Positions 17,559 through 19,520 of a stretch of DNA of 64,000 nt are shown here, piece by piece. This DNA comes from Lama guanicoe (lineage: Eukaryota), in the NCBI GenBank assembly GCA_013239625.1, contig MU053184.1:140220-204219 (forward strand), written 5' to 3'. Positions within the stretch are counted from its first letter, which is position 1, and each line of letters starts with the position of its first letter. The translations under genes were made by a program, and so were the position numbers. The notes under the pieces are model-generated. The model made no database searches and was not told the origin of the DNA. It worked only from the letters and a program-made list of their open reading frames with translations.

Positions 17559-18962
17559 TGTGTTAGTTTTCTCTTGCTGTGCAGCAAATTACCTTAAATG
17601 TAATGGTTTAAACAACCCACACGTTTCTGTAGGTCAGAAGTCCAGCATAGTGTGGCTGGATTTTCTTCTTAGGGTGTCACCATGCTAAAATCAGGGTATC
17701 CACCAGGGCTCAGTTCTTATTTGAGGCTAAGGGTCCTTTTCCATACTCACTGGTCAGTGGTAGACTTCAGTTCTTCCTTGTTGAAGAAGTGAGGTTCCCA
17801 TTTCCTGGCTCACTGTCAGCTGTCATCTGCTCTCTGCTCTTAGGGCCACCCATACCTTTTCTCATGTGGCCTCTCCATGTTCAAGCTAGCTGTGGTTCAT
17901 GCAATCTTTCTCTTCTACCCTCCTCTTATGCCTCCGACTTCCTCTTATACCCTCCTCTCCTGCCACCTGATAAAGTTCTCTCCTTTTAAGGCCTCATGTG
18001 ATTAAATTAGTCCCACCTGGAAAATCTCCCCTTTTTTGCCAGGGGAGGGGAAGGTACTAGTATTATTCCTGTTTTTCTTTTTAATACAATTTTTAAAGAT
18101 TATGTTCTACTTACAGTTGTTACAAAATATTGGCTATATTCCCCATGTTATACAATAGATCCACGTAGCCTGTCTTATACCCAGTAGTTTGTACCTCCCA
18201 CTCCCCCATCTCCATATCACTGCACCCCGCCCCCACCACTGGTAACCCTAGTTTGTTCTCTGTATCTGTGAGTCTACTTTTCTGTTATATTCACTAGTTT
18301 GTTGTATTTTTTAGATTTCATATGTAAGTGATAGCATACAGTATTTGTCTTTCTCTGTCTGACTTATTTAACTTAGCCTAATGCCCTCCAACTCCATCCA
18401 TGGTGTGACAAATGGCAAAATGTGATTCATTTTTATGGCTGAGTAGTATTTCATTGCACGCATAGTTAACCAATCCACAACAAAGGAGACAAGAATATAC
18501 AGTGGAGAAAAGACAGCCTCCTCAACAAGCAGTGCTGGGGAAACTAGACAGCTACATGCAGAAAAAATGAAGTCAGATCACTCTCCAACACCACACACAA
18601 AAACAAACTCACAGTGAACCAAAGACCCAAATCCAAGACCAGATACCACAAACCCCTAGAGGAAAACACAGACAGAACACTCCCCGACATAAATCACAGC
18701 ATTATTTCTTTGGATATTAGTAGACAGAGGATGTTGCAGCCATCAAACCATCAGCCACTGCAGCTGTGTACCCCGTGGGGATTCAGGATGGAGAAAAATA
18801 GGATCCTGGGGCTTGAGAAGTCCCGACAATCTCTCTTGTTGAAGGTCTGCTGTGCCATGTCGTATAACTAAATCATGGGAGTGATAGATCATTAAATTCA
18901 CAAGAATCATAAATTAAATAGTGGACTCTTGGGGGTCATGCCTAGAAATTCTGCCTACCATA
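17559..18962 (-). mobile_element. MLT1 (E/F-like) LTR, split by the insertion at 18036-18824
   Basis: Begins 'tgtgttagttttctcttgctgtgcagcaaattacc' and ends 'cctagaaattctgcctaccata'. The halves rejoin across the insertion. Confidence 0.8.
18036..18824 (-). mobile_element. Composite retro-insertion: L1 3' end (minus, ~18036-18464) + L1 ORF2 piece (plus, ~18465-18715) + ERV LTR piece (~18715-18820)
   Basis: Three recognisable modules bounded by a degenerate TSD, gaaaatctcccctttt (18020-18035) / gacaatctctcttgtt (18825-18840), 12/16 identical. Confidence 0.8.
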
Positions 18963-18964
18963 AC

Positions 18965-19520
18965 CCCTCACCCATTTTTTCACCCTTGAGTCCTGTTATT
19001 TGTGTGTGTGTATGTGTGTGTGCACGCTTGTGAGGGTGAAATTCCATGACACAGTACTTTTGTTGGAATACATAATCTGTTCTATAAGAGCAATGATTGC
19101 ATTTCATAATTTACCATGTGATCGTATCTTTATCCTATAGGTATGAGTGATTTCATTTTCAGACATATGGGAGTTTTTGTAAATCTATCATTTTGTAATC
19201 TGTATTATGGTCACAGTAACAGACTGTAAAATATTAATTCTTTGGAATTTATGAAAACTTCATTTGAAGCCAGTAGCCATTACATAGGTTATTTTTATAA
19301 AGGTTCTATTTTTTTTCTCAAAATGAATTTCTGATCTCCATTTGATATAAATTTTTATTAACTGCTATTAAAATTTTTTACATTTTAGTTTGATGTCTAC
19401 ATCATCTATTAGTTTCTGAGAGAAGTATGTTAAAATCTTCAACTACAACTAATTAATTATTCCCATAGTTTTGATGTTTCAAGGCTATGTTTTAGGTACA
19501 TACAGGTCATTATATATTCC
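18965..19520 (-). mobile_element. Old L1 fragment, apparently continuing after the pseudogene at ~20876-20970
   Basis: 'catctattagtttctgagagaagtatgttaaaatcttcaactacaact...tttcaaggctatgttttaggtacatacagg' is reverse L1 endonuclease-region sequence. Confidence 0.6.

What the first reader, a model, noticed from the sequence alone, without database searches (positions are those of the whole stretch)
18020..18840. LTR + inverted L1 + L1 tail inserted as one unit: candidate LTR-driven composite retroelement
Seen: read on the minus strand, the insert is ~105 nt of ERV LTR ('..ctgcagtggctgatggtttgatggctgcaacatcctctgtctact'), then antisense L1 ORF2, then a sense L1 3'UTR and a short A-tail. All lie between one degenerate TSD pair (12/16) inside an MLT1 whose halves rejoin. 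Known: twin priming produces 5'-inverted L1s but does not add LTR sequence. Inference: a source locus had a 5'-inverted L1 sitting in or behind an LTR. The LTR transcribed it, and L1 machinery re-mobilised the chimeric RNA. This also explains why the editing signature lies on the antisense L1 strand. If multicopy, it is a non-autonomous composite family.
Basis: partly seen in the sequence, partly recalled or inferred. Interest (0 to 1): 0.7.

Follow-up and report, generated by a model that had tools for sequence, protein, structure and literature searches.

The report
Re-copied inverted L1 with RNA-editing scars
This is an old, dead retrocopy of an already inverted L1 element that carries the scars of RNA editing and picked up a stray, promoterless piece of an LTR on the way; it is a curiosity of retrotransposon biology, not an LTR-driven mobile family.

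Summary
An ~800-bp insert sits in an old LTR-like repeat between target-site duplications (better read as 15 of 18 plus a 5-nt indel). On the minus strand it holds about 100 nt of an LTR, 260 nt of antisense L1 ORF2, the sense L1 3' end, a 34-nt non-L1 tag and a short A-tail.

The inverted-L1 unit is not unique. Two other loci share the same inversion junction. One (L042, own TSD and poly-A) shares the non-L1 3' tag. The other (L022) shares 10 of 12 testable T>C changes in the arm. The arm carries 26 T>C against 1 C>T, only on that strand and only in that segment, with an ADAR-like 5'-neighbour bias. So an already inverted L1 was transcribed, edited as RNA and copied again.

The piece is antisense U3 (about positions 24-140 of ~440), the canonical promoter points away, the L1-LTR junction is unique, and the sibling L042 continues as L1 past that point. 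It is most likely a one-off capture during integration.

The lineage is tiny (3 loci found) and old. Interest is moderate.

The parts
17922..18031 (.). Left half of the host repeat (old MaLR/MLT1-like LTR; the name is recalled, not tested against a library)
   Evidence: Aligns to six other copies (L090-L095). The alignments end at 18021-18034.
18009..18031 (.). Left copy of the target-site duplication
   Evidence: The same stretch of the intact copies L090 and L091 aligns here and at 18819-18835. 15 of 18 aligned bases match, with a 5-nt indel.
18032..18037 (-). Short A-tail of the retrocopy (a T-run on the + strand)
   Evidence: Read directly from the sequence.
18038..18071 (-). Non-L1 tag between the L1 end and the A-tail; read as a 3' transduction from the source locus
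   Evidence: The 19-nt core (18053-18071) recurs next to the L1 end in L042 (1 substitution, 3 deleted bases) and in none of the 30 other L1 3' ends examined. An exact pattern finds only these two places in the genome.
18072..18084 (-). A-rich remnant of the source L1's own tail
   Evidence: Position relative to ordinary L1 3' ends.
18085..18459 (-). L1 3' part in sense: the last ~47 ORF2 codons (18454 down to 18314), a stop at about 18311-18313, and the 3' UTR
   Evidence: 81-84% identical to 28 ordinary L1 3' ends. Translation. Transitions are balanced here: T>C 474 against C>T 494 summed over 51 copies.
18456..18460 (.). Inversion junction J, where the antisense L1 3' part meets the sense ORF2 arm
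   Evidence: The same junction is present in L022 and L042. The window lacks 17 nt there relative to L022.
18456..18715 (+). L1 ORF2 arm, roughly ORF2p residues 907-994 by extrapolation. It is sense on the + strand, so antisense in the retrocopy's RNA, and it is hyper-edited
   Evidence: 26 of 60 majority-T columns read C, against 1 C>T. Pairwise sums are T>C 658 against C>T 29 over 28 copies. ADAR-like 5' neighbour: U/A at 21 of 26 edited sites against 14 of 33 unedited, p=0.004. ORF2 identity through L084.
18714..18818 (+). Fragment of an old ~440-nt LTR family, about LTR positions 24-140 (5' part of U3). It is sense on the + strand, so antisense in the retrocopy. Firm to 18809, possible to 18818
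   Evidence: It departs from most copies at 9 columns. No T>C excess: 25 against 56. A 2-nt overlap (AT, 18714-18715) with the end of the L1 arm, read.
18819..18835 (.). Right copy of the target-site duplication
18819..18967 (.). Right half of the host repeat
   Evidence: Local alignments to L090, L091 and L093 continue from the duplicated stretch onwards.

Best explanation
The insert is one L1-machinery (target-primed) retrocopy whose sense strand is the window's minus strand. It landed in an old LTR-like repeat and made a 17-23-nt target-site duplication.

Its template was not an ordinary L1 mRNA. It was the transcript of an older L1 copy that had already been 5'-inverted by twin priming, read a few tens of bases into that copy's 3' flank. 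In that RNA the ORF2 arm was antisense. It was in double-stranded RNA with L1 sense sequence and was heavily deaminated A-to-I (ADAR type). Reverse transcription wrote the edits into DNA as T>C on the window's + strand.

The ~100-nt LTR piece at the retrocopy's 5' end is an antisense, promoterless bit of U3 from an unrelated old LTR family. It was captured in this one integration, either by a template switch of the reverse transcriptase at the end of first-strand synthesis or by second-strand priming on another LTR-containing RNA. It did not drive transcription.

Shown: the anatomy, the TSD, the junction shared by three loci, the shared tag, the shared edit set, and the uniqueness and orientation of the LTR piece.

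Inferred: the polarity of the edited RNA, ADAR as the editor, the order of events, and the way the LTR piece was captured.
For: 1. Clean insertion. Intact copies of the host repeat read through the site, and the flanking stretch is duplicated.

2. Inherited inversion junction. L022 and L042 have the same junction. A junction-core pattern finds only L042 and L022, with 0 in the control. A wider pattern finds only the window and L042, with 0 in the control.

3. L042 is itself a retrocopy. It has a 10-nt exact TSD and a poly-A. It carries the same non-L1 tag right after the L1 end. It is the only one of 31 L1 3' ends examined that does, and an exact pattern finds only 2 places in the genome.

4. 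Column 18324 in the 3' part. The window, L042 and L022 all read G, against 5 of 45 ordinary copies.

5. Editing. 26 T>C against 1 C>T in the arm. There is no excess in the 3' part or in the LTR piece. The 5' neighbour of the edited A on the minus strand is U/A at 21 of 26 sites against 14 of 33 unedited sites, p=0.004, and G at 2 of 26 against 9 of 33.

6. Shared edits. In the 29 majority-T columns that L022 covers, the window has C at 12, L022 at 11 and both at 10 (p=3e-5). Without three possible subfamily sites, 7 are shared (p=4e-4). L042 is unedited, with 2 T>C in 49 columns.

7. The LTR piece.
- It is antisense U3.
- None of 39 scored hits crosses the L1-LTR junction, and none of 19 LTR copies runs into L1.
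- L042 continues ~70 nt further in L1 at that point.
- No other copy carries the edited arm at more than 82% identity.
Against: - No source locus was found. A search with L042's tag plus L1 end gave no second match to the tag among the 40 scored of 1094 candidates.
- These searches score only the best 40 candidates, and the exact patterns lose most old, diverged copies. The lineage size (3) is therefore a lower bound, and a missing source is weak evidence.
- L022's architecture is not a simple 5'-truncated copy. A 135-nt edited sense piece is nested in an otherwise continuous antisense L1. It needs an extra template switch or a conversion event.
- The shared edits require a DNA-level edited ancestor. 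That is either the window locus itself or a locus that was not found.
- The double-stranded partner of the arm is not identified.
- The 3'-neighbour G enrichment often seen with ADAR is absent: 6 of 26 against 8 of 33.
- Neither the window's nor L042's target site shows the usual L1 endonuclease motif (read).
- The same LTR family lies 420 nt outside L042's TSD in the matching orientation, an uncomfortable coincidence. That LTR departs from most copies at 18 of 91 columns and the window shares only 1 of them.
Confidence: 0.6

Rival explanations
1. A source locus had the inverted L1 sitting in or behind an LTR. A transcript that began in the LTR ran through the inverted L1, and L1 machinery copied the whole RNA. 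The LTR is then part of the mobilised unit. An intermediate edited copy inserted in an LTR could be that source.
For: - All parts lie inside one TSD pair.
- The unit minus the LTR was demonstrably re-mobilised.
- A DNA-level edited ancestor of the window and L022 must have existed and is not in the assembly, so a lost intermediate is possible.
- An antisense start inside an LTR cannot be excluded from the copy alone, because a promoter is not transcribed.
- L042 happens to have an LTR of this family 420 nt upstream in the RNA sense.
Against: - The piece is antisense U3. The family's TATA and AATAAA point away from the L1.
- No other locus has the L1-LTR junction: 0 of 39 scored hits and 0 of 19 LTR copies.
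- L042 shows the source RNA continuing as L1 beyond the switch point.
- L042's LTR lies outside its TSD and shares 1 of its 18 private states with the window's piece.
- On the minus strand there is no GT at the LTR breakpoint in the family copies, so splicing does not explain the joint (read).
Confidence: 0.15
2. Recurrent template switching. Ordinary L1 reverse transcription repeatedly jumped, at a palindromic microhomology near the 'GTATAC/TATATA' site, onto one abundant, ADAR-edited cellular RNA that contains antisense L1 ORF2 followed upstream by antisense LTR. The window and L022 would then be independent chimeras with the same second template, not copies of a composite.
For: - In L022 the antisense L1 resumes exactly where it left off after the 135-nt edited piece, as expected for an excursion onto a second template and back.
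- The two junctions differ by 17 nt.
- Short AT-rich palindromes lie at both joined L1 sites.
- Template switching by L1 reverse transcriptase is an accepted route to chimeras (passages of preprint 10.1101/2025.02.02.635956).
Against: - The window and L042 share a non-L1 tag 3' of the L1 end. All three share G at 18324 in the 3' part. This ties the 3' parts together as well.
- L042 has the same junction but no edits.
- No genomic locus for such an RNA, with an L1 arm abutting the LTR, was found.
Confidence: 0.12
3. An ordinary, independent twin-priming event at this site, with the junction at a microhomology hot spot. The T>C cluster would come from something acting on the second cDNA strand, such as misincorporation by the reverse transcriptase or deamination of the DNA strand of an RNA:DNA hybrid.
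For: - The structure looks like twin priming.
- Palindromic microhomology lies at the junction.
- An ordinary L1 (L023) is 5'-truncated within ~10 nt of the same point, so that point may be a preferred stop.
Against: - The inverted arm does not abut the 5' TSD, because the LTR lies between them.
- About 715 nt of L1 is missing between the arm and the 3' part (coordinates).
- The same edit set in a second locus and the same 3' tag in a third are not expected from independent events.
- The first cDNA strand shows no matching excess: A>G 295 against G>A 338.
Confidence: 0.08

Closest known systems
Twin-primed (5'-inverted) L1 insertions (Ostertag and Kazazian 2001; recalled, not read here; the mechanism is also summarised in passages of preprint 10.1101/2025.02.02.635956)
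   Same: An antisense 5' L1 segment is joined to a sense 3' L1 segment with a poly-A, inside one TSD pair. There is microhomology at the inversion junction.
   Different: Here the inversion was inherited and was not made at this site. The junction recurs at three loci. About 715 nt is missing between the two segments. A foreign piece separates the arm from the 5' TSD.
L1 3' transduction lineages (siblings traced by shared flanking sequence; recalled)
   Same: A short non-L1 tag between the L1 end and the poly-A is shared by two copies with different TSDs and different tag lengths (about 34 nt and about 95 nt).
   Different: The inferred source is a defective, inverted, ORF-less L1 rather than a full-length active element. 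The source locus was not found.
Chimeric L1 retrocopies such as U6/L1, 5S/L1 and Alu/L1 (preprint 10.1101/2025.02.02.635956, abstract and passages)
   Same: A non-L1 segment is fused to the 5' end of a 5'-truncated L1-derived cDNA within one TSD pair. Template switching or twin priming on a second RNA are the accepted routes. Antisense partners are attributed to twin priming.
   Different: The partner here is a fragment of an interspersed LTR, not a small structured RNA. It occurs only once, and the L1 part is itself a composite.
Composite or derived non-autonomous elements moved by L1 (SVA: PMC3287187, seen only in the search listing; HAL1, recalled)
   Same: An RNA that encodes no working L1 proteins is copied by L1 machinery and ends in an L1-type tail.
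   Different: Only 3 loci were found. There is no sign of a promoter of its own and no amplification.
ADAR hyper-editing of inverted-repeat RNA, and edited retroelement RNA re-entering the genome
   Same: The footprint has the ADAR hallmarks: a strand-specific cluster of one transition type, depletion of G 5' of the edited base, and confinement to the segment able to pair with L1 sense RNA.
   Different: Editing is normally seen in RNA only; here the footprint is fixed in germline DNA of an L1-derived copy. Passages of PMC2873906 call editing of retrotransposons followed by re-integration 'expected to be rare'. Passages of PMC5224506 report no editing of L1 RNA in a cell assay.

Membership tests
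L1-mediated (target-primed) retrocopy | Target-site duplication flanking the insert, with an intact host sequence once the insert is removed | tested here: met
   The intact host-repeat copies L090, L091 and L093 read through the site. The duplicated stretch is 18009-18031 / 18819-18835, with 15 of 18 bases matching plus a 5-nt indel.
L1-mediated (target-primed) retrocopy | Poly-A tail at the 3' end next to the TSD | tested here: met
   Six A on the minus strand (18032-18037), short as expected for an old copy.
L1-mediated (target-primed) retrocopy | Insertion at an L1 endonuclease-type site (TTTT/AA on the primed strand) | tested here: inconclusive
   The reconstructed site reads C-rich, then TT, then G. 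It is not the usual motif, and the TSD end is ambiguous because it runs into the T-run.
Twin-priming event at this site | The inverted segment starts directly at the 5' TSD | tested here: not met
   About 100 nt of LTR lies between the TSD and the arm.
Twin-priming event at this site | The inverted and direct segments are nearly contiguous in L1 (small deletion or duplication) | tested here: not met
   In the contiguous L1 copy L023 the arm maps to 1501-1758 and the 3' part starts at 2476, a gap of about 715 nt.
Twin-priming event at this site | The junction is private to the event | tested here: not met
   The same junction is present in L022 and L042.
   In 8 family copies read in full, the TATA-like box and AATAAA lie 3' of the captured part and point along the + strand, away from the L1. 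The captured part is about positions 24-140 of ~440.
   None of 39 scored non-self hits (of 981 candidates) crosses the junction. None of 19 LTR copies continues into L1. The siblings L022 and L042 lack it.
Re-mobilised inverted-L1 lineage (3' transduction siblings) | The same internal junction in copies with different flanks and their own TSDs | tested here: met
   The window (TSD) and L042 (10-nt exact TSD). For L022 no ends could be defined.
Re-mobilised inverted-L1 lineage (3' transduction siblings) | A shared non-L1 sequence 3' of the L1 end | tested here: met
   The window and L042 only: 1 of 31 loci examined, and 2 places genome-wide by exact pattern. L022 lacks that region.
Re-mobilised inverted-L1 lineage (3' transduction siblings) | An identifiable source locus | tested here: not met
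   No further match to the tag among the 40 scored of 1094 candidates. The search has low sensitivity.
ADAR (A-to-I) hyper-editing footprint | A dense cluster of one transition type on one strand only | tested here: met
   26 T>C against 1 C>T in 261 nt, with none in the neighbouring segments.
ADAR (A-to-I) hyper-editing footprint | Neighbour preference (5' U/A favoured and G disfavoured; 3' G favoured) | tested here: inconclusive
   The 5' side fits: U/A at 21 of 26 against 14 of 33, p=0.004, and G at 2 of 26 against 9 of 33. The 3' G is not enriched: 6 of 26 against 8 of 33.
ADAR (A-to-I) hyper-editing footprint | A double-stranded RNA partner for the edited segment | not testable with these tools
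   The source transcript is unknown. L1 sense RNA is the obvious partner, by inference only.

The most novel reading that the evidence does not exclude
A twin-primed, 'dead-on-arrival' L1 served as a source and was retrotransposed again at least twice. Its antisense arm made the transcript an ADAR substrate, and the A-to-I edits were written back into the germline genome. The edits then act as a built-in record of which strand was RNA. Inverted L1s would be a recurrent, overlooked route by which RNA editing becomes heritable DNA change.
Probability: 0.5. Interest if true: 0.5.

Novelty: new variant of a known kind. Interest (0 to 1): 0.4.

Why it matters
5'-inverted L1 copies are usually treated as terminal products. 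This small lineage shows that one was transcribed and copied again by L1 machinery, and three things trace it: an inherited inversion junction, a transduced tag and a shared edit set.

It is also a clear example of ADAR-type RNA editing fixed in germline DNA through retrotransposition. A paper read here calls that outcome 'expected to be rare' (PMC2873906, passages). Another found no editing of L1 RNA in a cell assay (PMC5224506, passages).

For annotation, the practical lesson is that a strand-specific transition cluster can tell a second-generation copy from a primary twin-priming event. A foreign fragment inside the TSDs need not be a promoter.

The copy itself is old, broken and without any sign of function.

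Tried and rejected
- Splicing as the origin of the LTR-L1 joint. The L1 side has an AG in most copies, but on the minus strand the LTR copies show no GT at the breakpoint. The nearest GT is 8-10 nt further on, and those bases are absent from the window (read). Rejected.
- L042's neighbouring LTR as donor of the window's piece. Rejected, because the window shares 1 of that LTR's 18 private states.
- L042 as the original insertion next to the tag sequence. Rejected, because its own TSD encloses the tag and a poly-A.
- The 21-mer around 18468-18488 as an edit marker. It turned out to be partly a subfamily state shared with the ordinary copy L023. Those three sites were left out of a second test.
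- Search for the source locus with L042's tag: nothing.
- Search for a full-length sister with the same edits: best hit 82%.
- A sequence-only profile of the three junctions could not be run on this genome.
The run listing alone shows only that runs under five organism labels hold half or more of the sampled words.
- Pfam on three short translations of the window's pieces: no hits. PDB sequences with the arm's translation: no hits. Pfam on five ORFs of ordinary copies: one weak RVT_1 hit below its cut-off.
- Earlier findings of this scan: nothing.
- I recall the tag as resembling the MIR core. An in-window BLAST gave no support either way, so I do not name it.
- No library of interspersed repeats was on hand, so 'MLT1-like' and any name for the 440-nt LTR family remain recalled guesses.
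Full report
**Setting.** The window is part of a 2.05-Gb genome held as G000. All comparisons with other copies were made inside that genome. No library of interspersed repeats was on hand, so the family names used here (MLT1-like, MIR-like) are recalled and untested.

**Anatomy (and later calls).** On the + strand the region reads as follows:

| Coordinates | Feature |
|---|---|
| to 18031 | Host repeat, left half |
| 18032-18037 | Six T (the A-tail on the minus strand) |
| 18038-18071 | 34-nt non-L1 tag |
| 18072-18084 | T-rich remnant of an L1 tail |
| 18085-18459 | L1 3' end, antisense |
| 18456-18715 | L1 ORF2, sense |
| 18714-18809 (perhaps to 18818) | Fragment of an LTR, sense |
| from 18819 | Host repeat, right half |

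- The 3' part is 81-84% identical to 28 ordinary L1 3' ends. On the minus strand it translates into the end of ORF2, with the stop at about 18311-18313.
- The ORF2 arm is 79-82% identical to ordinary copies.
- In one such copy, L084, the open frame just upstream of the homologous stretch matches human LINE-1 ORF2p residues 699-850 with E about 1e-48. By extrapolation this places the arm near residues 907-994.
- In the contiguous copy L023 the arm maps to 1501-1758 and the 3' part begins at 2476. About 715 nt of L1 is therefore missing between them.

**The insertion is clean.** Six other copies of the host repeat align to the left half up to 18021-18034. In L090, L091 and L093 the same stretch aligns both to 18009-18031 and to 18819-18835, and the copies then continue with the right half. 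The target-site duplication is therefore 17-23 nt, with 15 of 18 aligned bases matching and one 5-nt indel. The site does not show the usual L1 endonuclease motif.

**The LTR piece.**
- A 115-nt query gave 397 first-look candidates and 39 scored non-self hits at 74-86% identity.
- In 19 of 19 fetched copies the match is confined to 18714-18809 and does not run into L1.
- The copies resemble each other over about 430-445 nt. Most of the eight read in full begin TG and end CA. They carry a TATA-like box and an AATAAA in their 3' third, all on the strand that is the window's + strand.
- The window's piece is thus about positions 24-140 of U3, in sense on the + strand.
- In the retrocopy, whose sense strand is the minus strand, the piece is antisense. 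The family's own promoter points away from the L1.
- A query across the L1-LTR joint gave 981 candidates. None of the 39 scored non-self hits crossed the joint.
- The joint has a 2-nt overlap (AT).

**The inversion junction is shared.**
- A query across it found L022 spanning it, 1 of 39 scored non-self hits.
- The whole insert found L042 spanning it, among 40 scored of 10,151 candidates.
- Aligned, L022 and L042 have the same junction. The window lacks 17 nt there.
- A junction-core pattern finds only L042 and L022 in the genome. A wider pattern finds only the window and L042. The reversed-pattern controls found none.
- These exact patterns miss most diverged copies, so three is a lower bound.

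**L042 is a sibling retrocopy.**
- It has an exact 10-nt TSD, a poly-A, the L1 3' part, the same junction, and an arm that runs about 70 nt further in L1 than the window's arm.
- Directly 3' of its L1 end it carries the same non-L1 sequence as the window, with 1 substitution and 3 deleted bases over the 19-nt core. It is the only one of 31 L1 3' ends examined that does.
- An exact pattern for tag plus L1 end finds only these two places.
- In L042 the tag runs on for about 95 nt before the poly-A. In the window it runs about 34 nt.
- This is what 3' transduction from one source with two polyadenylation points looks like.
- At column 18324 in the 3' part, the window, L042 and L022 all read G against 5 of 45 ordinary copies.

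**The editing signature.**
- Against the majority of 25 ordinary copies, the arm departs at 46 columns. Of these, 26 are T>C and 1 is C>T. 60 columns are majority-T.
- Pairwise sums over 28 copies give T>C 658 against C>T 29.
- In the 3' part the sums are 474 against 494 (51 copies). In the LTR piece they are 25 against 56 (21 copies).
- Read on the minus strand these are A>G changes.
- Their 5' neighbour is U or A at 21 of 26 sites against 14 of 33 unedited sites (p=0.004). It is G at 2 of 26 against 9 of 33. The 3' neighbour shows no G enrichment.
- This is the pattern expected of ADAR acting on an RNA in which the arm was antisense. An ordinary twin-priming event copies L1 sense RNA, and editing of that RNA would give A>G on the + strand, which is not seen.

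**L022 shares the edits.**
- In the 29 majority-T columns that L022 covers, the window has C at 12, L022 at 11 and both at 10 (p=3e-5).
- Three of these are also C in the ordinary copy L023 and may be subfamily states. Without them, 7 are shared (p=4e-4).
- L042 is unedited, with 2 T>C in 49 columns.
- So the window and L022 descend from one edited DNA copy, which may be the window itself. L042 comes from the unedited line.
- No other copy of the edited arm exists above 82% identity among the 40 scored of 3801 candidates.
- L022 is odd. Its 135-nt edited piece is nested in an antisense L1 that resumes exactly where it stopped. This needs a further template switch or a conversion event. I could not define its ends.

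**Reading.** The simplest account has five steps:
1. A twin-primed L1 copy arose somewhere.
2. It was transcribed into its 3' flank.
3. One such RNA gave L042.
4. Another was hyper-edited on its antisense arm and gave the edited line, to which the window and the piece in L022 belong.
5. At the window's integration, reverse transcription left the source RNA about 70 nt before the point L042 reached, and about 100 nt of an LTR-containing RNA was added before the joint to the target.

The last step could be a template switch or second-strand priming on another RNA. Both are accepted routes to L1 chimeras (passages of preprint 10.1101/2025.02.02.635956).

**Against this account.**
- No source locus was found, and the searches are insensitive.
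- L022 needs special pleading.
- The double-stranded partner of the arm is unknown.
- An LTR of the same family lies 420 nt outside L042's TSD in the matching orientation. That LTR is not the donor: it departs from most copies at 18 of 91 columns and the window shares 1 of them. I take the proximity as chance, helped by a query that contained LTR words. L065 is another such locus.

**Age.** Outside the edits, the window departs from the majority at 26 of 386 columns in the 3' part, 20 of 261 in the arm and 9 of about 95 in the LTR piece. That is roughly 7-9%, in line with the TSD. The copy is therefore old. Runs under five organism labels, from 8 studies, hold 54-69% of the stretch's sampled words.

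**Literature seen.**
- Preprint 10.1101/2025.02.02.635956: abstract and passages.
- PMC5224506: passages reporting no editing found in L1 RNA and an editing-independent restriction by ADAR1.
- PMC2873906: passages stating that re-integration of edited retrotransposons is expected to be rare.
- PMC4866542 and PMC5974252: passages, nothing used.
- Searches listed no paper whose title or abstract start describes re-mobilised inverted L1s or ADAR footprints fixed in L1 copies. The library is partial and I did not read the listed papers in full, so this is not proof of absence.

**Verdict.** The LTR is a one-off, antisense, promoterless passenger, and there is no composite family beyond three old loci.

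Noticed in passing
L042:2606-3036 (G000:C8676, about 420 nt outside L042's TSD): A full-length LTR of the same family as the window's piece lies next to the sibling retrocopy, in the matching orientation. It is not the donor: the window shares 1 of its 18 private states. The proximity is unexplained and is taken as chance.
   Followed up: partly
L022 (G000:C9012, around 891160-891420): A 135-nt edited sense ORF2 piece is nested in an antisense L1 that resumes exactly at the break, with AT-rich repeats on both sides. It looks like a reverse-transcriptase excursion onto a second template and back, or a conversion tract.
   Followed up: partly
L023 (G000:C12520, around 16558895): An ordinary L1 copy is 5'-truncated within about 10 nt of the point where the inverted arms begin. 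That point in ORF2 may be a preferred stop for reverse transcription.
   Followed up: no
window 18031/18032 and L042:1428/1429: Neither retrocopy of this lineage sits at a typical L1 endonuclease site. The primed strand ends in C-rich or GAGAGC sequence rather than a T-run.
   Followed up: no
window 17906-17967: Two tandem ~30-nt copies (83% alike) lie inside the host repeat's left half.
   Followed up: no
window 18997-19022: A short (TG)n microsatellite lies just past the host repeat.
   Followed up: no
window 18762-18766 versus the LTR copies L003-L016: The LTR family has an indel-prone stretch. Most copies carry about 10 nt that the window lacks, and L042 and L002 lack different, overlapping bits.
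   Followed up: no
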